64,000 nucleotides of DNA, from assembly GCA_963693115.1 (NCBI GenBank), contig OY843750.1, forward strand, positions 1,148,680 to 1,212,679, given 5' to 3'. The first letter of the stretch is position 1; the number at the start of each line of letters is the position of its first letter. The notes beneath the pieces were generated by a model that searched no databases, had not been told where the DNA came from, and was given only the letters and a program-made list of their open reading frames with translations. The DNA comes from Spirochaetia bacterium. GTDB lineage: Bacteria > Spirochaetota > Spirochaetia > WTKD01 > G963693115. This document shows positions 34,543-61,181 of the stretch, one piece after another. Position numbers and translations under genes: made by a program.

Positions 34543-34598
34543 TGGCTAGCAATGGTTATTGAACTTTTATATAAGCATTATACAAGCATCCGGCAGAC

Positions 34599-35398: not shown

Positions 35399-36301
35399 AT
35401 GAGTCAAGAAACAAACGATAACTCCACTTTAAGTAAGAATGAAGGTACTGAGGCTGTTCAGTACCAAGATACTACAGACCCAGCGTCTGATACTGTGTCT
35501 CTAACAAAAGAAACACCTGTATCAACGCTAGAACCTTCCTTAGAACACGCAGAGCCTCCTGTAGATGTAGGAGACCCAATACCACAGTCGCCAAAAGAGG
35601 TACCAAAAGAGGCACCAATAGAAGCACCAGTAGATGCACCAATAGATGCACCAGTACCTTCAGACTCTGTGACAAGCCCAAAGGAGCAACTAGAAGAACA
35701 ACTAGAAGAACAACCAAAAGAACAACCAAAAGAACAACCAAAAGAACAACCAGAGACAGCAATAGAGCATACAGTGCCCAATGATAATAAGCTCGAGTTA
35801 GAAACAAAATCCGCAACAGAGCCAATAACAAAATCTACAGCAGAGCCTACAACAGAGCCTACAGTGACAAATACGACTCATGACTCGTCATCACCAGTAA
35901 CATCACCATCTGCGTCAGGTATATCTGAACAAGATCCCTCTACTCGTGGCGAAGAATATTCACAATTCGGACACAGTGCACAAAGACATCCTTCTTCATA
36001 TGGCTCTAGCACACAGGCATCATCGACCCGACTAGACATAAGCGAAAAGTCGGGATATCCACGAGAAAACTATGCAAACAAAGACCCCGTGTTGAGAGTA
36101 AGAAGGCGTAGAAAATTTGACAGGATTTCGTCAAAAAATCTTATCATTGATTATAAAAAACCAGAGTTGTTAAAGGACTTCATGAGTGAGTCAGGTAAGA
36201 TTATGCCCCGTATGATTACGGGAGTTTCAGCAAAAAGTCAACGAAAAATAACAAGGGCAATAAAGAGTGCACGTTTCTTGGGGTTGCTACCGTATAAGTA
36301 A
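35399..36301 (+). CDS. rpsR: 30S ribosomal protein S18 with a ~225-aa N-terminal low-complexity extension
   Basis: The C-terminal ~72 aa ([66 protein letters not shown]) are canonical S18. The same frame stays open back to ATG 35399, 16 nt after the ssb stop. Internal GTG/TTG codons near 36083 would give a normal-length S18. Confidence 0.8.
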
Positions 36302-47101: not shown

Positions 47102-48016
47102 TTACTCTTCGTATAGCTGTGTTTCGGATATACCCGAGTCTTTTGCTACTTCTTCTTCGTGTATATGTACTTCGCTTATCTCTTTGTCTTCGTCTGGATG
47201 ATATTTTGAAAAATCTTCTGACTGAAAACTAGAGAACACCTCTTTTGTTTCATCTGTTTCTTCTTGTTTTGGATATGTTCCATCCGTGAGTACGCCTTCA
47301 TTATCTTGTAGTGTTTCAATGACTTGTAGTCCTACTTCATTATCAGCTTCTATGACGCCTTGTGCAAGGATATCACAGTAGAGACGTATTGCGCGTATAG
47401 CGTCATCATTTCCGGGTATCGGGTACTGTATATGAGTAGGATCACTGTTAGTGTCGACAATGCCAATAATTGGTATGTTAAGTTTCTGTGCTTCGGCTAT
47501 GGCAAGCGAATCAGCGCGAGTGTCGATAATAAAAATGATACCGGGTAGCTCTTTCATGTTTTTAAGACCACCAAATTTACGGTTGAGACGGCTTATCTCT
47601 TTATTAACTTTCATACGCTCTTTTTTTGTAATTTGATCAAGAGAGCCATCGATTTGCATTTTTTCTAACTTTTTTAGATGGGTAATGGTTTTGCTTATGG
47701 TCAAAAAATTGGTGAGCAATCCACCCATCCAATGATAATTGACATAATGCATGCCACATTTGGTGGCGGCTTCTTCTACAATTTGTTGACTTTGTTTTTT
47801 GGTTCCCACAAAAAGCACAGACTTATTCGCGAGTGCAGTCCTACGAACAGCTTCGTATGCATCTCGTATGCGATGTATGGTTTGTTGCAGATCAATTATA
47901 TGAATATTATTTCGAGCTGCATAGATGAATTTTTTCATCTTTGGATTCCAACGATTTACCTGGTGACCAAAATGTACGCCACACTCAAGCAAGTTTTGCA
48001 TGGTGACTATTGCCAT
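47102..48016 (-). CDS. rpsB: 30S ribosomal protein S2 with acidic C-terminal extension
   Basis: LLECGVHFGHQVNRWNPKMKKFIY... is canonical S2. The last ~60 aa are E/D-rich. Confidence 0.95.
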   Translation of the reverse strand: MAIVTMQNLLECGVHFGHQVNRWNPKMKKFIYAARNNIHIIDLQQTIHRIRDAYEAVRRTALANKSVLFVGTKKQSQQIVEEAATKCGMHYVNYHWMGGLLTNFLTISKTITHLKKLEKMQIDGSLDQITKKERMKVNKEISRLNRKFGGLKNMKELPGIIFIIDTRADSLAIAEAQKLNIPIIGIVDTNSDPTHIQYPIPGNDDAIRAIRLYCDILAQGVIEADNEVGLQVIETLQDNEGVLTDGTYPKQEETDETKEVFSSFQSEDFSKYHPDEDKEISEVHIHEEEVAKDSGISETQLYEE

Positions 48017-49197: not shown

Positions 49198-50055
49198 TTG
49201 TATGAGCTGTATAGACACTCGTACAACACAAAGCAGACTTATCACGCCTATGTCTTTATGTGTCTGTGTTTCTTACTTGTGGGTACTACGCTGAGATCGT
49301 GTCTAGAGAATTTTAATGATAATAATCCCACTCTAAAAAACCTCCCCTTAATAAGGAAGGGTAGTGAGGAAACCAGTGGAACAGCACCAGTAAATAGTCT
49401 ACTTTTTAAGAATTTGACAGAAACAGCTACCGAGTTCGAATCCGAATCCGATGACAATAAACTTGGTCTAAGCTATATCGATGTTTCAAACGTATCTAGC
49501 ATGAGTGAGTTGTTTAAAAGTAAGACCACCTCTAGCGGTGGTATAGAATGTTGGGATGTTTTACGTGTCAAAAATATAGGTAATATGTTTAATGGTGCAT
49601 AGGCATTTGACCAAGATCTCACAACATGGGATGAACATGTATTATCGACGGTAGATACAATGTCTATGTTTGCTCGAATAAGCAAGGCATGTGCCATATT
49701 CGACTGGAAAGAAGTGGGTATGTGGTGTTTTACCTTCACCGACCATGCCAATGTGATGGAAAACAAAGCAATGTTATCAGGAGAAAATAAATGCCTCAAT
49801 AGCCGATACTATTTCGTCACTCAATCTTTAATTACTTAGAAACCTGTAATGTCGATGATATGTGCTATTTGTTTAGTAGTAAGGCCATATTTAGAGGAAA
49901 CATTACCAAGTGGGATGTAAATGCGTGAGAAATATGGGATATATGTTTTGGAATGCGGAGTCGTTTAATTGAGATATCAGTGGCTGGAATGTAGGCAAAG
50001 TGACAAATATGGAAGAGAAATTTTGGAAGGCGATTAGTTTTTACAAGGATAAGTA
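49198..50055 (+). pseudogene. Decayed BspA/DUF285 leucine-rich-repeat lipoprotein gene
   Basis: There is an in-frame TAG at 49600-49602 within MFNGA*AFDQDL. The intact paralog has CTG at the equivalent place (near 52305). The frame changes before LETCNVDDMCYLFSSKAIFRGNITKWDV (from about 49836). It changes again before MFWNAESFN*DISGWNVGKVTNM (about 49945-50015). Confidence 0.8.
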
Positions 50056-50157
50056 AGTCTTGAGTCATGTAATGCCAAGAAATTAGCAACTACCTACCCT
50101 CGCTTTATGACAAATACATCAAGGTCAGTACAAGAAAATTTTGATTATAATTAAGGT

Positions 50158-50553
50158 ATGAGCTCAACAACATTTAGCAGAGCTAGAGTATCATTTGGAC
50201 AGTTGATAATTCCCATATTGATTTCTCTTTCATATTTATTTTTCTGTATCATGGCCACTTTTTTTACCGAGCGTTTACTTGGACGAATTGGGCTTACAGT
50301 ATCTGAAACAAGGAACTTCTATCCAATTATTTCGTGGATAGGAGCAAATTTCGCGATTTTTATTGGGTTACTCTTTACTATTATTAGTCGAAATCTTAGA
50401 ACGATGCAATTGCTATTTGTGGTGGTATTTGTTGATACTGTTATAGGCTTAATGGCGAGTATATATACGGGGGGCACGTTCATTGCCCAAATAGTGGTAC
50501 TTGTACTCATTACTGTTGAACTATTCTTATTAGCTAGGTCAAAAAAAACATAG
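50158..50553 (+). CDS. Hypothetical small membrane protein
   Basis: 131 aa with four hydrophobic segments. No family recognised. Confidence 0.45.
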   Translation: MSSTTFSRARVSFGQLIIPILISLSYLFFCIMATFFTERLLGRIGLTVSETRNFYPIISWIGANFAIFIGLLFTIISRNLRTMQLLFVVVFVDTVIGLMASIYTGGTFIAQIVVLVLITVELFLLARSKKT

Positions 50554-50794
50554 GCTACAAGACTAGCTATTAGAAAAAATATTGAAGATGTAGATGACCT
50601 TATATTTTTTTATGAAATACAAATACATTGTTGTGTTAGAGATGGTATTGCCAAAACGTTTGCATAAGTACCTCACAAAATAGAAATGCACCAAATATAA
50701 CATTGTCATTTTCATACAAGAGCGTATAAATAAAGCACGGAAAAGTGTGAAAATTGCAAACTATATCTTGCTTGGCTACAGTGTATAGTGTCTA

Positions 50795-50840
50795 AAATGC
50801 TACAAATAGTGCACTAAAATGTTATAGTTTTTTCTGTTAT
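50795..50840 (+). promoter_or_regulatory. Conserved upstream block of DUF285 gene A: 10-bp perfect palindrome plus extended -10
   Basis: aaatgctacaaaTAGTGCACTAaaatgtTATAGTttttt. The palindrome is at 50807-50816 and the TGtTATAGT at 50820-50828. The same block recurs at 53295-53342. Confidence 0.6.
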
Positions 50841-50886
50841 ATACGACTAAAATAGTATAATAAAGATTGATTAAAAGGAGATTTTT

Positions 50887-52992
50887 ATGATTATACTTTA
50901 CAAGCATATAATTGTTACGGCATTATTCGGTCTTTTGTGTTTACTATTGGTTATTGGAGCATTTTCGTGTGCTTCTGATCCCGAAGAAGGAGGTGATAAC
51001 CTTGGCGGAAACAATAAAAATATTGGTGATAGGTGGTTTGATGCTGGTGAGGATTGTGACAGCATAGATGCTACCAAACAATATGTACTACAAGATGAGT
51101 CTGAATTAATAAAACTCGTACAGAGAGATACCGAGAATCAAGGAGCAACAGTCAATCTAAACTACTTAGACACTTCGGGTATAACTACTATGATGGATCT
51201 GTTTGCCAGTGACGGTGTAGAAGGAGTGGCATTTAATGGGGTGTTGAACTGCTGGGACGTGAGTAGTGTGACAGATATGAGCAACATGTTTAAGGGAGCG
51301 ACAGCATTTAACGGAGATATCAGTGGCTGGGATGTGAGTAGTGTGACAGATATGAGCAACATGTTTAAGGGAACGACAGCATTTAACGGAGATATCAGTG
51401 GCTGGGACGTGAGTAGTGTGACGACCATGGCAAGTATGTTTCAGGATGCGACAGCATTTAGTCAGGACCTCTCAAATTGGAGTAACACAGTGCAAGATAC
51501 GGTAACTACTGAGTCTATGTTTGTTGGGTCTGGGGTAACAACGATGCCTAACTGGAAAGAGGCGGGGGCGTGCTTTCATCCGACAAACCATGAGGATATA
51601 GTTGCAGGCAAAGAAGAGCTACAAGATAAGATAAATGATTTATTAGTTGATGGCACGCTCTCTCCCGATCTCAATCATATCGAAACATGTAATGTTATGG
51701 ATATGAGCAGTCTATTTAGCGCAAATGCTACGTTTAATGGAAACATCAGTGAGTGGAATGTGAGTAGTGTGACAGATATGAGCAACATGTTTAAGGGAGC
51801 GACAGCATTTAGCGGAGATATCAGTGGCTGGGATGTGAGTAGTGTGACAGATATGAGCAACATGTTTAAGGGAGCGACAGCATTTAACGGAGATATCAGT
51901 GGCTGGGACGTGAGTAGTGTGACGACCATGGCAAGTATGTTTCAGGATGCGACAGCATTTAGTCAGGACCTCTCAAATTGGAGTAACACAGTGCAAGATA
52001 CGGTAACTACTGAGTCTATGTTTGTTGGGTCTGGGGTAACAACGATGCCTAACTGGAAAGAGGCGGGGGCGTGCTTTCATCCGACAAACCATGAGGATAT
52101 AGTTGCAGGCAAAGAAGAGCTACAAGATAAGATAAATGATTTATTAGATCCCACCACGCCCTCTCCCGATCTCAATCATATCGAAACATGTAATGTTATG
52201 GATATGAGCAGTCTATTTCGCGCAAATGCAACGTTTAATGGAAACATCAGTGAGTGGAATGTGAGTAGTGTGACAGATATGAGCAACATGTTTAATAACG
52301 CACTGGCATTTGACCAAGATATTGGTAGTTGGAATGTGAGTCAGGTTACTACTATGAGTGGGATGTTTGATAACGCAAAGGTATTTGACCAAGATATTGG
52401 TAGTTGGGATGTGAGCAATGTAACAAAAATGGATTATATGTTTAGTAACGCAAGGAAATTTGACCAAGATATTGGTAGGTGGGATGTGAGCAATGTGGAC
52501 GATATGCATCAAATGTTCTATTATGCTATAAAATTCAATCAATCATTAAAAGAATGGAAAGTAGGAAAAGTGAAGAGTATGGTATCTATGTTTTTATTTG
52601 CAACAGCATTTAACGGAGACATAACAGGATGGGATGTAAGTGCAGTAACAAACATGGATTCAGCGTTCTATGGAGCGGTAGAATTTAACCAAGATATTAG
52701 TGAGTGGGATGTGGGTAACGTGATTAAGATGCCTAATATGTTTGCCTCGGCAGAACTATTTAATCAAGATATTAGTGGATGGAATGTAGGCAATGTAACA
52801 GATATGAGTTATATGTTCTCGAATGCGAGTAGTTTTTGCAATGGGGATAAGAGTTTTGAGTCATGGGGTACCAAAATACCAACGACTACTAAGATAGCTG
52901 ATATGTTTAAAGATGCAGATCCCGATAACTCATGTACACACGTACCTCCAGCGTGGTATACCGAAAGAACTGCGGATAATTCTGGGGCTTGA
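50887..52992 (+). CDS. BspA-family / DUF285 leucine-rich-repeat surface lipoprotein (paralog A)
   Basis: Signal peptide with lipobox-like GAFSC. Many ~25-aa repeats of the form FNGDISGWDVSSVTDMSNMFKGATA. Three repeat blocks are separated by two linker modules (...NWKEAGACFHPTNHEDIV...SPDLNHIETCNV...). Confidence 0.85.
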   Translation: MIILYKHIIVTALFGLLCLLLVIGAFSCASDPEEGGDNLGGNNKNIGDRWFDAGEDCDSIDATKQYVLQDESELIKLVQRDTENQGATVNLNYLDTSGITTMMDLFASDGVEGVAFNGVLNCWDVSSVTDMSNMFKGATAFNGDISGWDVSSVTDMSNMFKGTTAFNGDISGWDVSSVTTMASMFQDATAFSQDLSNWSNTVQDTVTTESMFVGSGVTTMPNWKEAGACFHPTNHEDIVAGKEELQDKINDLLVDGTLSPDLNHIETCNVMDMSSLFSANATFNGNISEWNVSSVTDMSNMFKGATAFSGDISGWDVSSVTDMSNMFKGATAFNGDISGWDVSSVTTMASMFQDATAFSQDLSNWSNTVQDTVTTESMFVGSGVTTMPNWKEAGACFHPTNHEDIVAGKEELQDKINDLLDPTTPSPDLNHIETCNVMDMSSLFRANATFNGNISEWNVSSVTDMSNMFNNALAFDQDIGSWNVSQVTTMSGMFDNAKVFDQDIGSWDVSNVTKMDYMFSNARKFDQDIGRWDVSNVDDMHQMFYYAIKFNQSLKEWKVGKVKSMVSMFLFATAFNGDITGWDVSAVTNMDSAFYGAVEFNQDISEWDVGNVIKMPNMFASAELFNQDISGWNVGNVTDMSYMFSNASSFCNGDKSFESWGTKIPTTTKIADMFKDADPDNSCTHVPPAWYTERTADNSGA
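51259..52260. repeat. Two near-identical 501-bp (167-codon) in-frame tandem units inside paralog A
   Basis: Unit 1 (51259-51759) and unit 2 (51760-52260) differ at only a handful of positions, clustered at 51647-51660 versus 52148-52161. A third unit starts at 52261 and matches for about 35 nt before diverging. Confidence 0.9.
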
Positions 52993-53294
52993 GAAGGTCT
53001 TATCGACCTCGCAAGCTACTAATAGTACTAACACCAGCCTACTATTGCTAAGCCTTTTGGTGATACGTAGGAGTTGTGTATTGAGAGGCTCCTTATTCAA
53101 AGAGTAAAGAATACAGGAAGCAAAGGCTAAGACCAAGAGTAGCACGATATGGTAATTGCTTGATGTGCAAAATGCTCGGTTCTGTATCTAGCAACCTAGC
53201 AATGTTTGCTTTTCATGAAAGGTTGCTGAGTGCTCTGACTATGCTATTACACGTTTTTTTATAAAACCTGTTGCTTTTGGTTTATCCTATTAGC

Positions 53295-53342
53295 AAATGC
53301 TACATATAGTGCACTAAAGTGCTATAGTTTTTTTTCTGTTAT
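53295..53342 (+). promoter_or_regulatory. Conserved upstream block of DUF285 gene B: the same palindrome plus extended -10
   Basis: aaatgctacataTAGTGCACTAaagtgcTATAGTttttttt. The palindrome is at 53307-53316 and the TGcTATAGT at 53320-53328. Confidence 0.6.
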
Positions 53343-53427
53343 GCAAGGTTAATATAGTACAATGTAAAATTATTGTATATACGTTATATATACACAACAA
53401 TATGTATAAGGATAATAGGAGAATTTT

Positions 53428-55476
53428 ATGATTATATTTTACAAACGTATAACTGCTAGAGTATTGTGGAGTCTTTCATGCTTATGTTTGGCGATAGGAG
53501 TACTTTCGTGTGCTTCTGATCCCGAAGAAAATTCGGGAGGTGGCAATAACAAGAAGGGAGGTGATAAATTTAGTGATGTCACTGCCACGTATTATGATGT
53601 AGGCGAGGATTGTAATAGCATAAACGAAGATGAACAATATGCGCCAAAAGATGCAACAGAACTAAGGCGTATCATACAAAGAGATATGTACCAGCAAGGA
53701 GCAACAGTCAATCTAAACTACCTTGATACTTCGGGCATAACTACTATGGTAGATCTATTTCTCAGCATAGGTGATACTACCGAAGAAGCGACATTTAATG
53801 CTGTTATGAACTGTTGGGATGTGAGTGGTGTCAAGTATATGAGCAATATGTTTGAGGGACTGACGGCATTTAATGGAGATATAACAGAGTGGGATGTGAG
53901 TCAGGTAATAGACATGAGTGGTATGTTTATCCTTGCTAGTGCGTTTAACCAAGATATCAGTGGCTGGAAAGTAGATAATGTGACGAACATGGATGATATG
54001 TTTTATGAAGCAAGGGCATTTAACCAAAATATCGGTAGTTGGAACGTGAGCAAGGTAACAAGTATGAGGGCTATGTTTCAAGATGCTACTGCATTCAATC
54101 AAGATCTCACCGATTGGAAAAATACAATACAAGCTACAGTAACTACAGAGTCAATGTTTGTTGGTTCGGGGATAACAGAGACACCCGATTGGAGGGAGGC
54201 AGGAGCATGCCTCCATCATACAGCGCATGATCATGTAGTAGAAAATAAGGACGAACTACAAGAAAAACTGAATACGCTGATGACGGTAGACGTTCCATCT
54301 CCCGATCTCAATCATTTAGAGACCTGTAATGTCAAAAATATGAGTAGCCTTTTTTGGACACAAACCGTATTTAACGGAGATGTAACAGGGTGGAATGTCA
54401 GTTCGGTTGAAGACATGAGATTGATGTTTTCGAATGCATATGACTTTGACCAAGATCTCAGCAGTTGGGATGTAGGCAAGGTGAAAAATATGTCGGCGAT
54501 GTTTGGAAATGCTATTTCGTTTAATCAAGATATCAGCGGGTGGAATGTGGGTAGTGTGACGACCACGCAAGGTATGTTTTCGGGTGCAAAAGCCTTTGAT
54601 CAAGATATCAGCGGGTGGAATGTGGGTAGTGTGACGACCATGCGAGGTATGTTTAGCTTTGCAGAAGAGTTTGACCAAGATCTCTCAGGCTGGGGTGATA
54701 CAATACAAGCCAGCGTAGTTACAGACAATATATTTAATGGCTCAAAAATAACGACATTGCCTGATTGGAAGAAAGCAGGGGTGTGTCTTAATCATACTGC
54801 TCATGAAAATGTAGTTGAAAACAGAGATGAGTTGATAACAAAGGTGCATGCTTTGATAGACAGTGATCCTTTGCAAAGCCTTAATCATCTTGAGACTTGT
54901 AATGTCGGGAGCATGGCAGGCCTTTTTTCAGAGGAAACTACTTTTAATGGAGATATAACCGGTTGGGATGTGAGTAATGTTATAGCTATGGGCGAAATAT
55001 TCAAAAATGCTAAGGCTTTTAACCAGGATATCAGCGGATGGGATGTAGGTAAGCTCAAATATTCTGAGAGTATGTTTCATGGTGCGAGCGCATTCAATCA
55101 AGATATTAGTGGATGGAATATGAGCGCTGTATTGGATATGGGCTCAATGTTTGAGGGTGCCGTGGCATTCAACCAAGATATCAGCGGATGGGATGTAGGT
55201 AAGCTCATACATTCTGATAAAATGTTTCATGGTGCGAGCGCATTCAATCAAGATATTAGTGGATGGAATGTAAGCAATGTAACAAATATGGAAAATATGT
55301 TCTCGAATGCGAGTAGTTTTTGCAATGGGGATAAGAGTTTTGAGTCATGGGGTACCAAGGTAGTAGAGACTGCTAAGATAGCTGATATGTTTAAAGATGC
55401 AGATCCCGATAACTCATGTACACACGTACCTCCAGCGTGGTATACCGAAAGAACTGCGGATAATTCTGGGGATTAA
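53428..55476 (+). CDS. BspA-family / DUF285 leucine-rich-repeat surface lipoprotein (paralog B)
   Basis: Lipobox-like GVLSC. It has the same three-block architecture and the same N- and C-terminal cassettes as paralog A, with a diverged centre. Confidence 0.85.
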   Translation: MIIFYKRITARVLWSLSCLCLAIGVLSCASDPEENSGGGNNKKGGDKFSDVTATYYDVGEDCNSINEDEQYAPKDATELRRIIQRDMYQQGATVNLNYLDTSGITTMVDLFLSIGDTTEEATFNAVMNCWDVSGVKYMSNMFEGLTAFNGDITEWDVSQVIDMSGMFILASAFNQDISGWKVDNVTNMDDMFYEARAFNQNIGSWNVSKVTSMRAMFQDATAFNQDLTDWKNTIQATVTTESMFVGSGITETPDWREAGACLHHTAHDHVVENKDELQEKLNTLMTVDVPSPDLNHLETCNVKNMSSLFWTQTVFNGDVTGWNVSSVEDMRLMFSNAYDFDQDLSSWDVGKVKNMSAMFGNAISFNQDISGWNVGSVTTTQGMFSGAKAFDQDISGWNVGSVTTMRGMFSFAEEFDQDLSGWGDTIQASVVTDNIFNGSKITTLPDWKKAGVCLNHTAHENVVENRDELITKVHALIDSDPLQSLNHLETCNVGSMAGLFSEETTFNGDITGWDVSNVIAMGEIFKNAKAFNQDISGWDVGKLKYSESMFHGASAFNQDISGWNMSAVLDMGSMFEGAVAFNQDISGWDVGKLIHSDKMFHGASAFNQDISGWNVSNVTNMENMFSNASSFCNGDKSFESWGTKVVETAKIADMFKDADPDNSCTHVPPAWYTERTADNSGD

Positions 55477-55612
55477 GAGATACTATCAAACTCGTGTAGG
55501 TGAGCCATTATGTGTGGCTTGCCTATTAGCACTGGTTTATTTTTATTGGCTTGATGATGGCCTAGGTCTTGTTCACTTTGGGGTGTAATTGCCGCAAATT
55601 TTTTAAAATCTC

Positions 55613-55641
55613 TTGACAATATTTTTATTTTTTGTTATTAT
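55613..55641 (+). promoter_or_regulatory. Strong sigma-70-type promoter in front of the Cys-run ORF
   Basis: TTGACA (55613-55618), a 17-nt spacer, then TATTAT (55636-55641). Confidence 0.7.
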
Positions 55642-55696
55642 ATAGGTTAAGGTGAGGTTACTGCAAGCAGTAGCTATACCAAATGAGGATACTGTT

Positions 55697-55885
55697 ATGA
55701 ACATTTTAGATAGACACATTCTTAAAGATCTCATCCTCTTCTCCCTTAATTTTCTCGGGGGAGAGTCAAAAGAGCAATATTCATGCATATCGCCGGCTAA
55801 GGGTAATACGGACACTTGTTGTGGCTGTTGTAAATCTGGATCCTGTGGATGTTGTTGTGAGTGTTGTTCAAATCATTCATGCTAA
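55697..55885 (+). CDS. Small ORF (62 codons) ending in an 11-Cys-codon run; candidate leader peptide or Cys-rich peptide
   Basis: GAGGA (55685-55689) lies 7 nt before the ATG. Product: MNILDRHILKDLILFSLNFLGGESKEQYSCISPAKGNTDTCCGCCKSGSCGCCCECCSNHSC. The track ORF starts at GTG 55652, but the ATG with a Shine-Dalgarno is the better start. Confidence 0.6.
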   Translation: MNILDRHILKDLILFSLNFLGGESKEQYSCISPAKGNTDTCCGCCKSGSCGCCCECCSNHSC

Positions 55886-56189
55886 CAAAGCAGAAAAGAA
55901 AAAACAAGAATTTAATATAAGATAGTAACTATTGTAAACCCATCGCTGTTTGTAGTTGTAGGGTTATAGTAGTAAGGTCTATAGAGTTGTATTATGTATG
56001 CCATGTGCTACGGTACGTATATGACATTCTTGTTTATCTAGTAGTACTGGTGTTATACTGGTCTTGCATTCTGCTGTCTTATATATTGCTATTCTTTATA
56101 TCTACTAGTTCTGGATTTCTAAAGAGCATATATAATAACCAATAAACATATATTCTCGATATAATACGAGAAAGTTATAAGGAAAAAAA

Positions 56190-57263
56190 ATGAACAAAAG
56201 AAAACTATTTATATTTGTGCTGTATCTGATTACAGCATCTACATTAACCACACTTTGGTCGCTTGGCTCGTCCGATAGTCAAAATGATGAATCCGAAGTA
56301 CAATTGCTTCATGTTTCGTTTGATATAGCAAGAGAAATAGGTCGAAGGCTAAACGAGGGCTTTATTCCGTGGTATAAAGAACAGACAGGAGTGAGCGTTG
56401 CGATAGAACAGTCAAACGCTGGATCTAGTCGTCAAGCACGAGCTGTGTCAGAGGGCCTGCCTGCTGATGTTGTAAGCATGAACCAGTATCTCGACATAGA
56501 TCTAATTTATAATGAGACTGCTACCAAGCCCGAAGGCGCACTTATTCCGCGTGATTGGCAAAGTCTGTATCCAAACCAATCAAGCCCTGCGAGTTCTACC
56601 ATGGCCTTTGTTGTACGAAAAGGAAACCCAAAACAAATACGAGATTGGGACGACCTCATACGTGACGATGTAGCAGTCATTGCACCAAACTACCGTAGTA
56701 CTGGCAACGGGCGCTATAGTCTTTTGACTGCATATTCTTATGGACTCAATAAATACGGATCATCTCCCGAAGATGCGTATCGTTTTGTTAGTGCTCTTAT
56801 TGATAATACTGGCATACTTGCGACAGGTGGGCGGGATGCAACCAATATCTTTGTAGAGCGAGGGCAGGGGGATGTTTTGCTCACGTTTGAAGCAGAAGTC
56901 AATCTCATAGTACAAGATCTAGGTCCCGACTCATTTGAGGTTGTCGTGCCAAGCTACGGCGTTGATGCCAAAATATACGTCGTCGTGGTAGAAAAAAATG
57001 CCAAAGAAAAAGGAGAGGCACAGTATCAAGCTGCAAAAGCCTATTGGGATTTTATCTACACTGACCAAGGGCAAGAAATCGTAGCGCAGAGTTTCTTTCG
57101 TCCAATACAAAAAGATATTGCTGCACGTTATCAGAATGCACTGCCAAATATAGAGCTGTTCACGGTAGAAGATGTATACGGTGATTGGGGACGAGTGCGC
57201 GATCTCTTGTTTGATGATGATGGCGTAGTTGAGTCAATCTACCAAGAACTAGGAAAGCAGTAG
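56190..57263 (+). CDS. cysP: Sulfate/thiosulfate-binding periplasmic protein (Sbp/CysP)
   Basis: It aligns along its length with E. coli Sbp as I remember it (LLHVSFD...QSNAGSSRQARAV...FVVRKGNPKQIRDWDDLIR...TNIFVERGQGDVLLTFE...GQEIVAQSFFRP). It has a signal peptide. Confidence 0.88.
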   Translation: MNKRKLFIFVLYLITASTLTTLWSLGSSDSQNDESEVQLLHVSFDIAREIGRRLNEGFIPWYKEQTGVSVAIEQSNAGSSRQARAVSEGLPADVVSMNQYLDIDLIYNETATKPEGALIPRDWQSLYPNQSSPASSTMAFVVRKGNPKQIRDWDDLIRDDVAVIAPNYRSTGNGRYSLLTAYSYGLNKYGSSPEDAYRFVSALIDNTGILATGGRDATNIFVERGQGDVLLTFEAEVNLIVQDLGPDSFEVVVPSYGVDAKIYVVVVEKNAKEKGEAQYQAAKAYWDFIYTDQGQEIVAQSFFRPIQKDIAARYQNALPNIELFTVEDVYGDWGRVRDLLFDDDGVVESIYQELGKQ

Positions 57264-57274
57264 CCTTCGATCAT

Positions 57275-58114
57275 ATGCAGACCTTAAGACATACACGAGG
57301 AATTCCTGGATTTTCTATTAGTCTGGGAATCACGATGGGGTGGTTAGGTTTTATTTTTATTATTCCTGTTGTAGCGCTCGTCTTGAGAGCTACAAGTTTG
57401 GGAAGCGAGACCTTGCTCTCTATAATAACGAGACCAGCTGCCCTGTATTCGCTCAAAATCACGATGGGATACGCCTGTGCCGCCGCTATTTGTAGTACGA
57501 TAATTGGTACATGTATAGCGTGGTCGTTTACACGGTATCGATTTCCTTTTTCGAGATTTTTTGATGCTCTTATTGACCTTCCATTTGCCCTTCCCGGGGC
57601 AGTGGGGGGCATTGCGCTCGCTTCTGTATTTGGAAGCAATGGATGGATAGGAAAACAGTTTGACGCAGTGGGGATACAGCTTATTTATAATCAATTTGGA
57701 ATTTTTATTGGTCTTTTGTTTGTAATGTTGCCTTTTGCAGTTCGTTCTGTACAGGCACTCATACAAGAGCTAGATGAACGGGAGATTCAAGCTGCACGCC
57801 TTTTAGGGGCAAGCAATGTACAAATTTTCTTTCGGATACTATTTCCACAGCTTGTACCGGGTATATATAGTGGCTTTATTACTTCTTTTGCACGGGGAAT
57901 AGGCGAATACGGCACGGTCATTTTTGTGGCAGGTAATATTCCTTATCAAAGCGAAGTGCTGTCGCGGTATATTTACAATAAGATAGATCAGTATGATGTG
58001 ACGGGTGCCACGGTAGTTGCCGCAGCGCTTTTGCTTATATCGTTTGCCTTGCTAAGCTTGCTTAATATTAGTAAGCGATACGTATATGGAGGAGCGCATG
58101 AGTCATACCGTTAA
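57275..58114 (+). CDS. cysT: Sulfate ABC transporter permease CysT
   Basis: Six-TM permease with an EAA-like loop (ELDEREIQAARLLGASNVQIFFRILFP). It follows cysP. Confidence 0.85.
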   Translation: MQTLRHTRGIPGFSISLGITMGWLGFIFIIPVVALVLRATSLGSETLLSIITRPAALYSLKITMGYACAAAICSTIIGTCIAWSFTRYRFPFSRFFDALIDLPFALPGAVGGIALASVFGSNGWIGKQFDAVGIQLIYNQFGIFIGLLFVMLPFAVRSVQALIQELDEREIQAARLLGASNVQIFFRILFPQLVPGIYSGFITSFARGIGEYGTVIFVAGNIPYQSEVLSRYIYNKIDQYDVTGATVVAAALLLISFALLSLLNISKRYVYGGAHESYR

Positions 58115-59015
58115 AATACGTACAATACGGCATTCTTTGGGTTTGCTAGCAAAAAAGATCATCAGCAATCGAACCATACTTATTGTCATAAGTATATGTT
58201 TTCTGTTATTATTGCTCGTAATACCACTTTCTTCGATAGTCGTACTGGGCTTATCTAAAGGATTAGACACCTTTTTGGGTCATATAAACAGTCCTAGTAC
58301 TCAATTTTCGATTGGTCTCACTGTCCTCGTGTCGCTTGCATCGGTTATCGCGTCTACCTTATTTGGTGTGTTTGCGGCGTGGTGTATAGTACACTTTCGT
58401 TTTTGGGGAAGACGTATGCTCCAAAGCATCATAGAGCTACCCATTACTATTTCACCTATTATCGTGGGATTTATGTTTACCTTGCTATACGGAAAATATG
58501 GGTATCTTGGAAATATTATCGAGAACACCGGCATTACTATTATTTTTTCGTGGCCAGGGCTTGTCTTAACAAATATGGCAATTACCCTCCCGTATGTAGC
58601 GCGTACCTTGATTCCTGCTATGGAATCACTTGGGGCCGATCAAGAACGTACAGCACGATTGTTAGGAGCAAATGGTGTACAAATATTTTTTCGCATTACC
58701 TTACCACGAATTAAGTGGGCTCTGCTCTATGGCATTATTCTTGCGATGGCACGAGGTGTAGGCGAATACGGGGCAGCAGCCGTAGTGTCAGGGCTGGTTC
58801 GAAACAAAACTGTTACGCTTCCATTGCAGGTCGACATTTATTATAGCGAATATCAGAGCGTGGCTGCGTTTGCCTGCGCAACATTGTTTCTCTTTGTGTC
58901 GTTCATTACTATTGTGAGTAAGAAGCTAATAGACATTCAGAATAGCCCCGCTAAAAGAATTTCCAAAAAAATAGTAGGAAGGATAGATGAAAGTAGAATT
59001 ACAACATATACATAA
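58086..59015 (+). CDS. cysW: Sulfate ABC transporter permease CysW
   Basis: Permease paralog with the loop [27 protein letters not shown]. It overlaps both neighbours. ATG 58098 is an alternative start. Confidence 0.85.
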
Positions 59016-60063
59016 AAAATATGGAGCGTATAGTGCACTCACCGATATATCGTTTGAGGTGCCAGAAGGAACGCTCTTGTCATTACTCGGTCCTTCGGGC
59101 TGTGGCAAAACGACATTACTAAGAATTATATCGGGCTTAGAAACGCCCGATGCTGGTAACGTGTTTTTAGACGGTAAGGATATCACGAATATTGGAGACA
59201 GATCAAAGGTTGGGTTTGTATTTCAGCATTATGCATTGTTTCAGCATATGCGCATATTTGATAACGTCGCTTTTGGACTGCAAGTGAAGCCAGCGCATAT
59301 TCGCCCGAGCAAAAAGGAGATTGAAGAACGTGTTCATGAGGTGTTGGCACTCGTTCAACTTGATAATCAAAGTAAAAAGTATCCGTCTCAGCTTTCTGGT
59401 GGACAGCAACAAAGGGTAGCGCTTGCGAGGGTGCTTGCAATACAGCCACGAGTTTTACTCTTGGACGAACCTTTTGGTGCTTTGGATGCCAATGTGCGAC
59501 GTAGTCTCAGAAGATGGCTCAGAGACTTGCATGAACGGATTCAGATAACGACTATATTGGTGACTCACGATCAAGAAGAAGCGCTTGAAATATCAGATAA
59601 TGTTGTCCTCCTTAACCAGGGAGTGCTTGAACAGATAGGGAGTCCACAACAGGTATACGAGCAGCCCAGCAATCATTTTGTTTACGAATTTCTCGGTCAG
59701 GTTAATATATTCAACCCGCGATTTCATAATGACCACCTTGTGCACTATACACCCGATGGTAAAGAATCTCCGATCGCACATAAAGGGCACTTTTACGTGA
59801 GACCTCATGACATAGAGATAGTATTGCTTGATTCCAAAAAAAAGAAGGCGCAGGGAGTGATCATTCGAACAAGTTTTGTTGCAGAAAAAGTTCTCTTGCA
59901 AATACGCTTGGATGAATCAAGTCCTTTTGTTGCACGCTCCAGTGATAAAAAATCGTCAAAGCCTGATGGACAGGAAAATCTTGTAGAAGCAAGCATAGGA
60001 CTGCGTCAATGGAGAACTTACAACTATGCAGTGGGGGATAAAGTTGGGCTCAGCTTTTCGTAG
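58987..60063 (+). CDS. cysA: Sulfate ABC transporter ATP-binding protein CysA
   Basis: Walker [10 protein letters not shown], signature [13 protein letters not shown], Walker B LLLDEP, and a C-terminal regulatory (TOBE-like) domain. Confidence 0.88.
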
Positions 60064-60111
60064 TTAGTACATAGGGGGCGTGTTTTTCTCTGGTTATTTC
60101 TGCTTTTTTCT

Positions 60112-60185
60112 GGGGCTATTGCGGGGCTATTGCGGGCGCTTGGGCTATCTCTGATCTATTTTTGGTCTATCTTTGGTCTATCTTT
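60112..60185. repeat. Short tandem repeats in the cysA/peptide-ABC convergent gap
   Basis: ggggctattgc occurs twice (60112-60133), followed by the 11-bp unit ggtctatcttt twice (60164-60185) with a degenerate preceding copy. Confidence 0.85.
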
Positions 60186-60194
60186 GGTGCCTGC

Positions 60195-61181
60195 TTAATT
60201 ATAGAGGTGACACGCGCCGTAGTGGTTGGGGCGTATTTCTCTGAGCCTAGGAATCCGTGTTTTGCATATATCCATGGCCACAGGACATCGCGGATGAAAA
60301 GGACATCCCGAAGGTGGGTGTATTGCAGAAGGGACATCTCCTCGTATGGTGGGCTTGTTTCGTGCGATATGTGGGTCAGGTAGTAGATGAGATGTGAAGA
60401 GAGCTTTGCTGTACGGATGAAGTTTATGGGTTTTGAGTTCATCGGCAGGCGCACTTTCTATGATTTTTCCTAAGTACATAACGATGATTCTATCCGCAAT
60501 AAATTCTACAACGCTAAGGTCGTGTGATATAAATATATACGAGAGACCACGTTGCTCCTGTAAGTCAAGGAGTAGGTTTAGTATTTGTGCCTGAATCGAA
60601 ACATCAAGCGCAGAAACTGATTCATCACATATAATAAGTTGTGGTTGTACGCTAAGCGCTCGTGCAATACATACGCGTTGTCTTTGCCCTCCCGAAAGCT
60701 GGTGTGGAAACCTGTTTACAAAAATCTCGCTGAGCCCCACTTCTTTTAGTAGCTGAGCAACTATCTTGTTATGTTGTGCACGAGGGGCGATGGCATGTGT
60801 CTGGAGTCCTTGTTTTATAGAATCTCCAATAGTTCGACGTGGATTGAGCGAAGAATAAGGATCTTGAAATATCATTTGTACGTGTTTTCTGTACTGTTTG
60901 AGTTGTTTTCCTTTAAATTCTGAGATCTCTTCTCCATTAAATAAAATAGTGCCACCCGTTTTTTGTTCTAGGCGTATGAGGGTACGAGCAAGCGTTGATT
61001 TTCCACATCCCGATTCGCCTACTATGCCCACGATTTCGCCCTTATTGACACTGAACGATATATCATCAACTGCTTTAAGGAGGGATTTTTTTCCTCTTAT
61101 GGTTTGAGAAGGAAGGGTATAATGAGTTTTAAGCGCTTGTACCTTGAGCAGAGAAGGAGGTGTCGCTGTATTTTTGTTCAT
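60195..61181 (-). CDS. Oligopeptide/dipeptide ABC transporter ATP-binding protein (OppF/DppF type)
   Basis: Walker A GESGCGKST, LSGGQRQRVCIARAL, and the C-terminal Cys-rich oligopeptide-type tail CPFHPRCPVAMDIC. Confidence 0.88.
   Translation of the reverse strand: MNKNTATPPSLLKVQALKTHYTLPSQTIRGKKSLLKAVDDISFSVNKGEIVGIVGESGCGKSTLARTLIRLEQKTGGTILFNGEEISEFKGKQLKQYRKHVQMIFQDPYSSLNPRRTIGDSIKQGLQTHAIAPRAQHNKIVAQLLKEVGLSEIFVNRFPHQLSGGQRQRVCIARALSVQPQLIICDESVSALDVSIQAQILNLLLDLQEQRGLSYIFISHDLSVVEFIADRIIVMYLGKIIESAPADELKTHKLHPYSKALFTSHLLPDPHIARNKPTIRGDVPSAIHPPSGCPFHPRCPVAMDICKTRIPRLREIRPNHYGACHLYN

What the first reader, a model, noticed from the sequence alone, without database searches (positions are those of the whole stretch)
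55613..56189. Well-signalled small ORF ending in 11 Cys codons directly upstream of the sulfate importer operon: candidate cysteine-sensing leader peptide
Seen in the sequence:
- A near-consensus promoter: TTGACA, 17 nt, TATTAT (55613-55641).
- GAGGA 7 nt before ATG 55697.
- A 62-codon ORF whose last 22 codons (55817-55882) include 11 Cys codons (10 TGT, 1 TGC): CCGCCKSGSCGCCCECCSNHSC.
- After its stop come 304 untranslated nt and then cysP-cysT-cysW-cysA on the same strand. I see no comparably good promoter in between.

Established knowledge: classical leader-peptide attenuators (trpL, hisL, leuL, thrL, pheL, ilv leaders) place runs of codons for the regulated amino acid near the 3' end of a short ORF. 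Sulfate import feeds cysteine synthesis.

Inference: ribosome pausing in the Cys run when charged tRNA-Cys is scarce could license transcription or translation of the importer. I am not aware of an experimentally characterised Cys-codon leader in spirochaetes; this needs a literature check.

Caveats:
- The ORF is longer than classical leaders.
- By eye I found no convincing intrinsic terminator or alternative hairpins in 55886-56189. The only pairing I saw is a ~10-nt complementarity, 55902-55911 with 56026-56035.
- A Rho-dependent or translational mechanism, or a functional peptide product, therefore remain open.
Basis: partly seen in the sequence, partly recalled or inferred. Interest (0 to 1): 0.8.

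Follow-up and report, generated by a model that had tools for sequence, protein, structure and literature searches.

The report
Cysteine-codon leader ORF before sulfate importer
A strongly signalled 62-codon reading frame whose tail is half cysteine codons sits at the head of the transcript for a sulfate-import operon in an isolated spirochaete lineage. It most likely acts as a ribosome-based gauge of cysteine supply, a design so far shown only in mycobacteria, but the mechanism could not be demonstrated from sequence.

Summary
These are the TTGACA-17-TATTAT promoter with an extended TG, GAGGA 7 nt before the ATG, a 62-codon ORF with 11 Cys codons in its last 22, 304 untranslated nt, and then sbp/cysP-cysT-cysW-cysA. 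The Cys density is far beyond chance. Shuffles of the window reach at most 7 Cys per 22 codons, and the proteins encoded in the window have a median of 0.44% Cys.

The peptide has no homologue in any protein, family, structure or metagenome search. No RiPP-maturase or metal-resistance family was detected among the 17 flanking genes I annotated.

Twelve other spirochaete sbp loci lack such an ORF. The lineage is isolated, however: its ribosomal protein uS2 is at most 65% identical to any other known protein. Conservation is therefore untestable rather than absent.

No intrinsic terminator, no stall-dependent alternative fold, no pairing of the Cys run with the cysP Shine-Dalgarno site, and no clear Rho-loading site was found.

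Best reading (about 0.5): a Cys-tRNA-sensing leader ORF that controls the importer in cis, by an unresolved mechanism that does not use an intrinsic terminator. It is functionally analogous to the mycobacterial polycysteine short ORFs but fails their defining structural features. Rivals are a functional Cys-rich peptide and an unused ORF in a long leader. I class it as a new variant of a known kind, of moderate interest.

The parts
55613..55641 (+). Near-consensus sigma-70 promoter: TTGACA, 17 nt, TATTAT, with an extended -10 TG. An A/T-rich stretch lies upstream. The predicted transcription start is near 55648-55650.
   Evidence: It matches 11 of 12 positions and is one of only four such sites in the window. 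The perfect-consensus site lies directly upstream of rpsF.
55651..55680 (+). Predicted stem-loop at the 5' end of the transcript, with an 8-bp inner stem at 55656-55675. It may stabilise the mRNA.
   Evidence: It appears in both the minimum-free-energy and centroid structures. Its function is inferred.
55685..55689 (+). Shine-Dalgarno sequence GAGGA, 7 nt upstream of the ATG.
   Evidence: About 44% of the window's genes have a Shine-Dalgarno-like motif at this distance, against 6% of all ATGs.
55697..55885 (+). 62-codon leader ORF (ATG to TAA) encoding MNILDRHILKDLILFSLNFLGGESKEQYSCISPAKGNTDTCCGCCKSGSCGCCCECCSNHSC.
   Evidence: It is an orphan with no homologue. Codon usage of codons 2-40 is inconclusive, although this frame scores best of the six. 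The AlphaFold2 model has mean pLDDT 58.8.
55817..55882 (+). Cys-codon run: 11 Cys codons (10 TGT, 1 TGC) in the last 22 codons, with a longest consecutive run of 3. This is the proposed ribosome stall site when charged tRNA-Cys is scarce.
   Evidence: 11 of 22 against a maximum of 7 in 50 shuffles; 19.4% Cys in the peptide against a median of 0.44% in the window's proteins.
55886..56189 (+). 304-nt untranslated, A/T-rich spacer between the leader stop codon and the cysP start codon. It is predicted to form a branched domain.
   Evidence: No intrinsic terminator. No Rfam match. The + strand fold has z = -1.83, the - strand z = -0.48. No C>G region follows the stop codon.
55902..55919 (+). 5' arm of the long-range complementarity. 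It starts 17 nt after the leader stop codon.
   Evidence: 16 of 18 positions are complementary to 56018-56035, with a duplex energy of -12.6 kcal/mol. This exceeds all 60 dinucleotide shuffles. It forms with probability 0.7-0.95 in transcripts truncated at 56040-56060, whether or not a stall is imposed.
56018..56035 (+). 3' arm of the long-range complementarity. It overlaps a weak hairpin with a U-rich tract, and also overlaps a weak internal promoter candidate (TTGTTT, 18 nt, TG-n-TATACT, 56030-56059).
   Evidence: The promoter candidate comes from reading the sequence and falls below the scan threshold.
56093..56100 (+). Predicted anti-Shine-Dalgarno segment UCUUUAUA, which pairs with the cysP Shine-Dalgarno region (56176-56184).
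   Evidence: Pairing probability is 0.55-0.92 under every condition modelled. It is not relieved by a simulated stalled ribosome.
56153..56172 (+). 6-bp inverted repeat TTCTCG-N8-CGAGAA, 8 nt upstream of the cysP Shine-Dalgarno site. It encloses a TATAAT hexamer and could be a hairpin or an operator.
   Evidence: Its function is unknown.
56190..57263 (+). sbp/cysP, the sulfate/thiosulfate-binding protein. It is 357 aa long and contains no Cys.
   Evidence: TIGR00971 at 310.8 bits against a cutoff of 155.5. Cys count.
57275..58114 (+). cysT, a permease subunit.
   Evidence: TIGR02139 at 294 bits.
58086..59015 (+). cysW, a permease subunit. It overlaps cysT by 29 nt.
   Evidence: TIGR02140 at 294 bits and TIGR00969 at 258 bits.
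58987..60063 (+). cysA, the ATPase subunit. It overlaps cysW by 29 nt.
   Evidence: TIGR00968 at 348.6 bits against a cutoff of 342.75.

Best explanation
The near-consensus promoter at 55613 drives one long transcript. It begins with an efficiently translated 62-codon ORF and continues, through a 304-nt structured spacer, into sbp/cysP-cysT-cysW-cysA.

The ORF acts in cis as a sensor of charged tRNA-Cys. When cysteine is plentiful, ribosomes read through the 11 Cys codons and release at the UAA stop, and the importer genes are poorly expressed. When cysteine, and hence sulfur, is short, ribosomes stall or queue in the Cys run, and expression of the sulfate importer rises.

The step that couples stalling to expression is not resolved. 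It is not a classical intrinsic terminator/antiterminator switch, and it is not direct pairing of the Cys run with the cysP Shine-Dalgarno site. The remaining options are:
- Rho-dependent termination in the untranslated spacer, modulated by ribosome occupancy, as in tnaC or mgtL.
- Protection of the mRNA by a ribosome stalled near its 5' end, as in ermC.
- Remodelling of the spacer fold, which includes the 55902-19/56018-35 helix.

What is shown: the sequence anatomy, the operon identity, the extreme Cys-codon density, and the orphan status of the peptide. What is inferred: that the ORF is translated, that it is co-transcribed with the importer, that ribosomes stall in the Cys run, and the direction of regulation.
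For: 1. The Cys density cannot be chance: 11 of 22 codons against at most 7 in shuffles, in a proteome with a median of 0.44% Cys.
2. The ORF lies directly upstream of, and on the same strand as, a sulfate ABC importer. Such importers are a very small fraction of a genome of about 1.8 Mb, so the position is unlikely to be coincidence (inference).
3. The expression signals are strong: an 11/12 promoter with TG, comparable to the rpsF promoter, and GAGGA at optimal spacing.
4. No site at or above 9/12 lies between the ORF and cysP, and no terminator lies between them. The importer is therefore probably transcribed from the 55613 promoter. The closest relative (L004) instead has a promoter-like site about 35 nt before the sbp start codon and no leader ORF.
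5. A near-consensus promoter needs no activator, which leaves control after initiation as the natural regulatory layer (inference).
6. Precedent: polycysteine short ORFs control cysteine-related operons in M. smegmatis through ribosome pausing, and as few as 2-4 Cys codons suffice (10.1101/834739). Actinobacterial Cys leaders without terminators were predicted earlier, with Rho suggested as the mechanism (PMC1262725).
7. The peptide has no homologue among 5.8 billion proteins, among 1.84 billion cluster representatives, or in Pfam, NCBIfam, PHROGs, PDB sequences or JGI metagenomes. No RiPP-maturase or metal-resistance family was detected among the 17 flanking genes annotated. This fits a fast-evolving cis-acting leader.
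8. The spacer shows modest, strand-specific structure (z = -1.83 on the + strand, -0.48 on the - strand) and one inverted repeat above shuffle level.
9. Canonical intrinsic terminators are only weakly enriched in this window and none follows cysA. The absence of one in the leader therefore says little.
Against: - No mutually exclusive structures tied to the Cys run were found. In constrained folding, the cysP Shine-Dalgarno site stays paired to 56093-56100, and if anything more so, when a ribosome is placed on the Cys run. The 55902-19/56018-35 helix forms regardless of a stall.
- Complementarity between the Cys run and the downstream RNA is no better than in shuffles.
- No C-rich, G-poor Rho-loading region follows the stop codon.
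- The ORF is 62 codons long, longer than classical leaders. Its Cys codons are interspersed in CC, CxC and CCC patterns that also resemble metallothionein motifs.
- Codon usage of the N-terminal 40 codons falls between real genes and random small ORFs, so translation is not independently supported.
- No such ORF precedes sbp in 12 other spirochaete loci. Cys-run upstream ORFs are not a general feature of sbp leaders, being found in only about 10 of roughly 150 loci at a lenient threshold.
- Weak internal promoter candidates exist (56030-59, and TATAAT hexamers at 56131 and 56160), so cysP could have its own transcription start.
- The whole case rests on a single genome.
Confidence: 0.5

Rival explanations
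1. The ORF encodes a functional Cys-rich small protein, for example a metallothionein-like metal or redox buffer, or a persulfide or sulfur carrier. It is made from the same promoter as the sulfate importer because its synthesis demands cysteine. It might serve as both product and sensor.
For: The expression signals are strong. At 62 codons it has the length of a small protein rather than a classical leader. The CC, CxC and CCC motifs, 12 Cys in all and a penultimate His resemble metal-thiolate cluster peptides (my own knowledge). The N-terminal 20 residues are predicted to be helical. No attenuator structure was found.
Against: There is no similarity to any metallothionein or any other protein, even at E-values up to 10, and no homologue in any database. 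No metal-resistance, redox or maturase family was detected in the flanking genes. The structure model is of low confidence. Making a peptide that is 19% Cys from the very transcript that is needed when sulfur is short would be wasteful. Its position directly before a sulfate importer would then need a separate explanation.
Confidence: 0.22
2. The ORF is not used. The 55613 promoter is simply the operon promoter, with a long 5' UTR of about 540 nt regulated in some other way: a protein repressor or operator such as the 56153-72 inverted repeat, an unknown riboswitch in the structured spacer, or a small RNA. The TGT-rich tract would be a compositional accident or an RNA or protein-binding element.
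For: Codon usage is inconclusive. ORFs of 50-77 codons occur by chance on both strands of this A/T-rich region. Another Cys-dense frame in the window is a pure artefact. The spacer has modest structure on the + strand and an inverted repeat above chance. The tract is also open in the +1 frame, where it is Val-rich.
Against: Eleven Cys codons in 22, in frame with a start codon that has a Shine-Dalgarno site 55 nt downstream of a near-consensus promoter, and directly upstream of a sulfur importer, is a conjunction of improbable events. The tract is not a tandem repeat. No Rfam family matches.
Confidence: 0.15
3. The ORF is the precursor of a ribosomally synthesised, post-translationally modified peptide, such as a SCIFF/ranthipeptide-like or double-glycine-leader bacteriocin. 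It would have an N-terminal leader ending in GG at residues 21-22 and a Cys-rich core.
For: There is a Gly-Gly at residues 21-22 after a hydrophobic, helical N-terminus, and a Cys-rich C-terminal core (sequence).
Against: There is no match to SCIFF or any other precursor family in NCBIfam or Pfam. No radical-SAM/SPASM maturase, C39-peptidase ABC exporter or lanthipeptide enzyme family was detected among the 17 flanking genes annotated (44.7-63.6 kb); of these, 50158-50553 matched no family, and small unannotated ORFs remain. The residues before the GG do not fit the double-glycine leader consensus: F and S stand where E and L are expected (my own knowledge).
Confidence: 0.05

Closest known systems
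Mycobacterial polycysteine leaderless short ORFs (Ms5788A/Rv0815A, Rv2334A and others; the 'Cys ribulon'; Canestrari et al. 2020, bioRxiv 10.1101/834739, published in Mol Microbiol 114:93)
   Same: A short ORF at the 5' end of an operon transcript has a C-terminal cluster of Cys codons and lies upstream of sulfur or cysteine metabolism genes. The promoter is strong and apparently constitutive. The proposed signal is ribosome pausing when charged tRNA-Cys is low. The ORFs are not annotated and evolve independently at each locus.
   Different: The transcript here is not leaderless: it has a 5' UTR of about 48 nt with a Shine-Dalgarno site. The ORF is 62 codons long and its Cys codons are interspersed, with a longest run of 3, against up to 8 consecutive in Ms5788A. 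The stop codon lies 304 nt from the regulated gene, not immediately adjacent to it. The defining duplex between the Cys tract and the Shine-Dalgarno site is absent. The phylum differs (Spirochaetota against Actinomycetota), and there is no sequence homology.
Predicted actinobacterial Cys leader peptides without terminators (cys operons of Mycobacterium and Propionibacterium acnes, cbs of Bifidobacterium longum; Seliverstov et al. 2005, PMC1262725)
   Same: Candidate leader peptides have runs of Cys codons near the stop codon, with no conserved terminator hairpin. Rho-dependent termination was proposed.
   Different: Those leaders are short and conserved among related genomes. This one is long, has no known relative, and shows no C-rich Rho-loading site next to the stop codon.
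Classical ribosome-mediated transcription attenuators (trpL, hisL, leuL, thrL, pheL, ilvL)
   Same: A leader ORF with its own Shine-Dalgarno site carries regulatory codons for the relevant amino acid clustered near its 3' end, on the same transcript as the regulated operon.
   Different: No intrinsic terminator or terminator/antiterminator alternative could be found. The ORF is 2-4 times longer. The regulated operon imports a precursor (sulfate) and does not make the amino acid itself.
Terminator-independent leader-ORF controls: tnaC (a stalled ribosome blocks Rho loading), mgtL/mgtP and toiL (translation-dependent RNA remodelling with Rho), ermC (a stalled ribosome unmasks the Shine-Dalgarno site and stabilises the mRNA)
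   Same: Control by ribosome position in an upstream ORF acts over a long untranslated spacer without an intrinsic terminator. This is the kind of mechanism that remains possible here (my own knowledge, and the discussion).
   Different: None of their specific signatures was found: no Rho-loading site beside the stop codon, no arrest-peptide motif, and no structure that sequesters the Shine-Dalgarno site and overlaps the stall site.
Bacterial metallothioneins (SmtA/BmtA, MymT)
   Same: They are small, Cys-rich peptides of about 50-60 residues.
   Different: There is no sequence similarity to any family or solved structure, no metal-related family among the neighbouring genes annotated, and a 40-residue N-terminal part that is poor in Cys.

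Membership tests
Classical leader-peptide transcription attenuator (trpL/hisL type) | A short ORF with translation signals on the same transcript as, and upstream of, the regulated operon | tested here: met
   The promoter, GAGGA, the ATG and the 62-codon ORF precede cysPTWA with no intervening site at or above 9/12 and no terminator. The ORF is longer than is typical for this family.
Classical leader-peptide transcription attenuator (trpL/hisL type) | A cluster of codons for the regulating amino acid near the 3' end of the leader ORF | tested here: met
   11 of the last 22 codons are Cys.
Classical leader-peptide transcription attenuator (trpL/hisL type) | An intrinsic terminator (G+C-rich hairpin followed by a U tract) between the leader ORF and the first structural gene | tested here: not met
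   The consensus scan finds none on the + strand. A relaxed scan finds only a hairpin of -7.7 kcal/mol at 55997-56028, made of A-U and G-U pairs and followed by a U-rich tract. Its predicted occupancy is at most 0.08.
Classical leader-peptide transcription attenuator (trpL/hisL type) | An antiterminator structure whose formation depends on a ribosome stalled at the regulatory codons | tested here: not met
   Constrained partition-function folding shows no stall-dependent switch. Such predictions are unreliable for 300 nt of A/U-rich RNA, so this is weak negative evidence.
Mycobacterial polycysteine leaderless sORF attenuator (Ms5788A type) | Leaderless mRNA, in which transcription starts at the ORF's AUG or GUG | tested here: not met
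   The -10 element ends 55 nt upstream of the ATG and a Shine-Dalgarno site is present. The transcription start is predicted, not mapped.
Mycobacterial polycysteine leaderless sORF attenuator (Ms5788A type) | At least 2 consecutive Cys codons at the C-terminal end of a short ORF upstream of a cysteine or sulfur metabolism operon | tested here: met
   The tail contains CC, CC, CCC and CC, with 11 Cys in the last 22 codons, upstream of the sulfate importer.
Mycobacterial polycysteine leaderless sORF attenuator (Ms5788A type) | The Cys tract base-pairs with the Shine-Dalgarno region of the downstream gene | tested here: not met
   The duplex energy is -11.0 kcal/mol, and 20% of shuffled Cys runs do as well. 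The Cys-run window ranks 42nd of 89 windows of the transcript. The Shine-Dalgarno site is instead predicted to pair with 56093-56100.
Mycobacterial polycysteine leaderless sORF attenuator (Ms5788A type) | Downstream gene expression responds to cysteine and requires translation of the sORF | not testable with these tools
   This needs reporter or proteomic experiments.
Rho-dependent leader-ORF attenuator (tnaC type) | A C-rich, G-poor Rho-loading site adjacent to or overlapping the leader stop codon, which a stalled ribosome can mask | tested here: inconclusive
   The C/G ratio is 0.33-0.73 in 78-nt windows from 55860 to 55980. Regions with C>G occur only at 55680-55740 and 56070-56130. Composition is a poor predictor of Rho sites, and Rho dependence cannot be tested here.
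Bacterial metallothionein | Sequence or profile similarity to a metallothionein family or to a solved metallothionein structure | tested here: not met
   There are no Pfam hits at E-values up to 10 and no hits to PDB sequences at E-values up to 10.
RiPP precursor (SCIFF/ranthipeptide or double-glycine bacteriocin) | A match to a precursor family, with an adjacent maturase or a C39-peptidase exporter | tested here: not met
   There is no NCBIfam or Pfam match. The neighbours are PARCEL lipoproteins, cysPTWA, oppCDF, maf, rpsB, tsf, frr and uppS. One neighbour, 50158-50553, matched no family.

The most novel reading that the evidence does not exclude
An isolated spirochaete lineage has independently invented a cysteine-sensing leader ORF of a new architecture. 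It has a Shine-Dalgarno site, is 62 codons long with 11 interspersed Cys codons, and acts across a 300-nt structured spacer. It uses neither an intrinsic terminator nor pairing with the downstream Shine-Dalgarno site, so it would work through Rho, mRNA protection or ribosome queuing. This would make it the first ribosome-based Cys attenuator outside Actinobacteria, and one that controls sulfate import directly. A still more novel possibility is that the peptide is both the sensor and a Cys-rich product.
Probability: 0.35. Interest if true: 0.65.

Novelty: new variant of a known kind. Interest (0 to 1): 0.5.

Why it matters
If the reading is correct, sensing an amino acid through ribosome pausing at cysteine codons would not be a peculiarity of leaderless mycobacterial mRNAs. 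It would be a solution reached independently in a distant phylum, using ordinary Shine-Dalgarno-led translation and applied to sulfate uptake.

It would also add a case of leader-ORF control that works without a terminator or sequestration of the Shine-Dalgarno site. That would be useful for working out how stalled ribosomes signal over hundreds of nucleotides.

In practical terms, it shows that scanning for extreme single-amino-acid codon runs in well-signalled small ORFs upstream of cognate pathway genes can reveal regulation in uncultured lineages that homology searches cannot reach.

If the reading is wrong and the peptide is a real product, it is an orphan Cys-rich small protein linked to sulfur import, which would also be new. 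The evidence is from a single locus and is entirely computational.

Tried and rejected
1. Homologues of the peptide. I searched with the word-indexed search of 5.8 billion proteins, phmmer against 1.84 billion cluster representatives, Pfam, NCBIfam and PHROGs, PDB sequences, a JGI metagenome scan, and tblastn and blastn against all fetched loci. Nothing was found.

2. Exact look-up of the peptide and of Sbp, to reach the source contig. Neither is on record. The cluster look-up gives no name.

3. Synteny. I examined 80 genome loci carrying sbp and 8 loci (L081-L088) fetched by six exact-protein look-ups. None of the 12 spirochaete loci has a Cys-rich ORF upstream of sbp. The 7-Cys GTG ORF in L004 has no promoter or Shine-Dalgarno site and lies about 490 nt upstream of sbp, so I rejected it.

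4. Whether Cys-tailed ORFs are a recurrent design upstream of sbp. One candidate turned up in an Acidobacteriaceae MAG (L018). It is not conserved in 71 metagenomic relatives that are 67-85% identical in Sbp, so I rejected the idea.

5. RNA families. Rfam gives no match at gathering thresholds or at E-values up to 10.

6. Attenuator structure. I tried full-leader folding, ribosome-footprint constraints, co-transcriptional truncations, a relaxed terminator scan, and duplex searches of the Cys run against the downstream RNA and against the cysP Shine-Dalgarno region. No stall-dependent switch appeared.

7. Rho-loading composition. No convincing site was found.

8. Coding potential from codon usage. 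The result was inconclusive.

9. Structure prediction of the peptide. Confidence was low, so I did not run a fold search.

10. Tandem repeat or duplication as the origin of the tract or locus. There is no tandem repeat. The duplication shared with the neighbouring PARCEL paralogue ends at 55478, upstream of the promoter.

11. A type I toxin with an antisense RNA. The only antisense promoter-like site (55938-55909, 9/12) is at chance level, so I rejected this.

12. Sulfur sparing in CysP as a discriminator. CysP has no Cys, but neither do 12 of 35 other proteins in the window, so this is uninformative.
Full report
OBSERVATION. Every element of the finding is present at the stated coordinates.
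- The promoter is TTGACA (55613-18), 17 nt, TATTAT (55636-41), with a TG two bases before the -10 element. It scores 11/12 and is the only + strand site at or above 10/12 between the upstream gene and cysP.
- Only four sites in the whole window reach 11/12. The perfect 12/12 site lies immediately upstream of rpsF. E. coli-like sigma-70 promoters are therefore meaningful in this organism.
- GAGGA (55685-89) lies 7 nt before ATG 55697. Only 6% of all ATGs in the window carry a Shine-Dalgarno-like motif at that distance, against about 44% of likely gene starts.
- The ORF runs for 62 codons to TAA at 55883-85. Its last 22 codons read CCGCCKSGSCGCCCECCSNHSC, with 10 TGT and 1 TGC.
- Fifty shuffles of the window never exceed 7 Cys in a stop-free 22-codon stretch.
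- Cys is 0.86% of residues in long ORFs and has a median of 0.44% per protein, so the peptide at 19.4% is about 40-fold enriched.
- The only other Cys-dense frame, at 35804 on the minus strand, is the antisense of an EQPK repeat inside an unusually long rpsR. It is an artefact of a kind that does not apply at 55817, where no gene overlaps.
- Tandem Repeats Finder does not call the tract a tandem repeat. The duplication shared by the two upstream PARCEL lipoprotein genes ends at 55478.
- The spacer is 304 nt long. The four downstream genes are a sulfate/thiosulfate ABC importer: sbp/cysP, cysT, cysW and cysA.

WHAT THE PEPTIDE IS NOT. It matches no family in Pfam, NCBIfam or PHROGs, even at permissive thresholds.
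- It has no homologue among 5.8 billion proteins, 1.84 billion cluster representatives, JGI metagenome contigs or PDB sequences.
- An AlphaFold2 model made without an alignment has low confidence, with mean pLDDT 58.8.
- The genes within about 10 kb are PARCEL/DUF285 lipoproteins, cysPTWA, oppC/D/F, maf, rpsB, tsf, frr and uppS. One of them, 50158-50553, matched no family. No radical-SAM or lanthipeptide maturase, peptidase-exporter or metal-resistance family was detected.
- This argues against a RiPP precursor and gives no support to a metallothionein. An orphan functional peptide cannot be excluded.

COMPARATIVE EVIDENCE IS UNAVAILABLE, NOT NEGATIVE.
- The best Sbp relatives are 65-70% identical and come from Spirochaetia MAGs. 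None of the 12 spirochaete sbp loci examined has a Cys-rich ORF upstream.
- The closest relative, L004, has a promoter-like site about 35 nt before the sbp ATG (TTGACA, 17 nt, CATCAT) and a good Shine-Dalgarno site. The long leader is therefore specific to this lineage.
- Ribosomal protein uS2 of this genome has no relative above 65% identity among 5.8 billion proteins. At that distance, intergenic leaders are not expected to be conserved.
- I also asked whether Cys-tailed ORFs recur upstream of sbp elsewhere. An Acidobacteriaceae MAG (L018) has a 52-codon ORF ending CSFCLCCCRSL, 62 nt before sbp. Only 3 of 71 metagenomic relatives have any Cys run upstream on the coding strand, against 1 on the opposite strand. 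There is no general pattern.

MECHANISM: WHAT COULD AND COULD NOT BE SHOWN.
- No intrinsic terminator lies in 55886-56189. A relaxed scan finds only a hairpin of -7.7 kcal/mol, made of A-U and G-U pairs and followed by a U-rich tract (55997-56039). Its predicted occupancy is at most 0.08.
- Intrinsic-terminator-like sites are only mildly enriched across 60 kb of the window, 57 against about 38 expected, and none follows cysA. The lack of one in the leader is therefore weak evidence.
- The spacer folds somewhat better than shuffles on the + strand (z = -1.83, 8 of 200 shuffles as good) but not on the - strand (z = -0.48).
This is more than in any of 60 dinucleotide shuffles.
- That helix is predicted to form, with probability 0.7-0.95, once the RNA reaches 56040-56060. 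It forms whether or not a ribosome footprint is imposed on the Cys run.
- The cysP Shine-Dalgarno site is predicted to pair with 56093-56100 under every condition. It pairs more, not less, with a simulated stall.
- The Cys run is no more complementary to the downstream RNA than shuffled sequence is: 69% of shuffles do as well against the whole downstream region, and 20% against the Shine-Dalgarno region.
- The region after the stop codon is G-rich, not C-rich (C/G 0.33-0.73). Mild C>G regions occur only inside the ORF's 5' half and at 56070-56130.
- The classical trp-type design and the Ms5788A-type design were therefore both tested and not met. The remaining ways to couple stalling to expression are Rho-dependent termination, mRNA protection by a stalled 5'-proximal ribosome, ribosome queuing, and remodelling of the spacer domain. 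These remain open and cannot be tested here.
- Codon usage of codons 2-40 (0.066 bits per codon) lies between random small ORFs (-0.04 ± 0.15) and real genes (0.22 ± 0.10). This frame is the best of the six, but the test is inconclusive.

WEIGHING THE READINGS.
- The conjunction is the argument: an extreme Cys-codon run, in frame with a well-signalled start, at the head of a transcript whose next genes import the sulfur needed to make cysteine. A chance origin is excluded by the Cys density. A coincidental location is unlikely, because sulfur-acquisition operons are a very small fraction of a genome of about 1.8 Mb (inference).
- A near-consensus promoter implies that control acts after initiation (inference). 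This matches what Canestrari et al. found in mycobacteria, where robustly transcribed polycysteine sORFs relieve attenuation when cysteine is limiting and 2-4 Cys codons suffice.
- A peptide that is 19% Cys is an odd product to encode on a transcript that matters when sulfur is scarce, but a sensible sensor.
- Against this stand the length of the ORF, the metallothionein-like spacing of the Cys residues, the absence of any demonstrable switch, possible weak internal promoters (TTGTTT, 18 nt, TG-n-TATACT at 56030-59, and TATAAT hexamers at 56131 and 56160), and reliance on a single genome.
- I put the cis-acting Cys-sensor reading at about 0.5, a functional Cys-rich peptide (possibly a sensor as well) at about 0.22, an unused ORF in a long leader regulated otherwise at about 0.15, and a RiPP precursor at about 0.05.

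COMPARISON WITH KNOWN SYSTEMS.
- In function, the closest systems are the mycobacterial polycysteine leaderless sORFs (10.1101/834739) and the actinobacterial Cys leaders without terminators predicted in 2005, for which Rho was proposed (PMC1262725).
- This locus is not a member of that family in any structural or evolutionary sense. It is not leaderless, its Cys tract does not pair with the Shine-Dalgarno site, it lies 304 nt from the regulated start codon, it shares no sequence similarity, and it comes from a different phylum.
- My literature searches found Cys-codon leaders only in Actinobacteria.
- If functional, it is therefore an independently evolved new variant of a known kind.

VERDICT. 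Interest is moderate (0.5). It is a clean, cheap target for a reporter experiment, but not a categorical novelty.

Noticed in passing
window 35399-36301 (+): The rpsR gene (ribosomal protein S18) encodes a 300-aa protein. It has an N-terminal low-complexity extension of about 200 aa rich in EQPK and APxD repeats, whereas typical S18 proteins are about 75-100 aa. Its antisense frame produces the only other Cys-dense stretch in the window (10 of 22 at 35804, minus strand), which is an artefact.
   Followed up: partly
window 34513-34627: A perfect sigma-70 consensus promoter (TTGACA, 17 nt, TATAAT, at 34599-34627) lies just upstream of rpsF (ATG 34637). Two 11/12 sites lie on the opposite strand at 34605 and 34542. 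Together they form a cluster of very strong divergent promoter-like sites in one intergenic region.
   Followed up: partly
window 47102-48016 (-), and the genome as a whole: Ribosomal protein uS2 has no relative above 65% identity among 5.8 billion proteins. The nearest named relatives, Alkalispirochaeta and Spirochaeta lutea, are about 55% identical. The window therefore comes from a deeply isolated Spirochaetia lineage with a contig of about 1.8 Mb.
   Followed up: partly
window 49198-55478 (+): Two tandem PARCEL-repeat (DUF285, Mbov_0838-like) surface lipoprotein paralogues lie at 50887-52992 and 53428-55476, with a DUF285 fragment at 49198-49602. They share 75-nt internal periodic repeats, 237-nt 3' ends that are 93% identical, and conserved upstream regions. 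This looks like a recently duplicated and possibly variable surface-protein array.
   Followed up: partly
L018 3735-3893 (Acidobacteriaceae MAG, palsa): A 52-codon ORF ending ...CSFCLCCCRSL lies 62 nt upstream of sbp in this acidobacterial MAG. It is not conserved: only 3 of 71 metagenomic relatives have any Cys run upstream of sbp. It is probably chance, or private to that lineage.
   Followed up: yes
L004 3230-3700: The closest relative has a G+C-rich stretch of about 500 nt inside the 746-nt intergenic region upstream of sbp. It has no long ORF, and it contains a 25-codon GTG ORF with 7 Cys that lacks any start signals. Its nature is unknown; it might be an RNA gene or a gene remnant.
   Followed up: no
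window 56153-56172 (+): An inverted repeat TTCTCG-N8-CGAGAA encloses a TATAAT hexamer and lies 18 nt before the cysP ATG. It could be an operator for a protein regulator, or a small hairpin abutting the Shine-Dalgarno site.
   Followed up: no
window 55821-55925 (+), the +1 frame of the Cys run: The +1 frame of the Cys tract is also open and Val-rich (VVAVVNLDPVDVVVSVV...). It extends 40 nt beyond the leader stop codon into the 5' arm of the 55902-19 helix. A +1 shift at starved Cys codons would carry ribosomes into that arm. This is purely speculative.
   Followed up: no
window 59900-60300: No intrinsic-terminator-like site lies between the convergent cysA and oppF genes. Terminator-like sites are only mildly enriched over shuffles across 60 kb of the window (57 against about 38). 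This suggests the organism relies little on canonical intrinsic terminators.
   Followed up: partly
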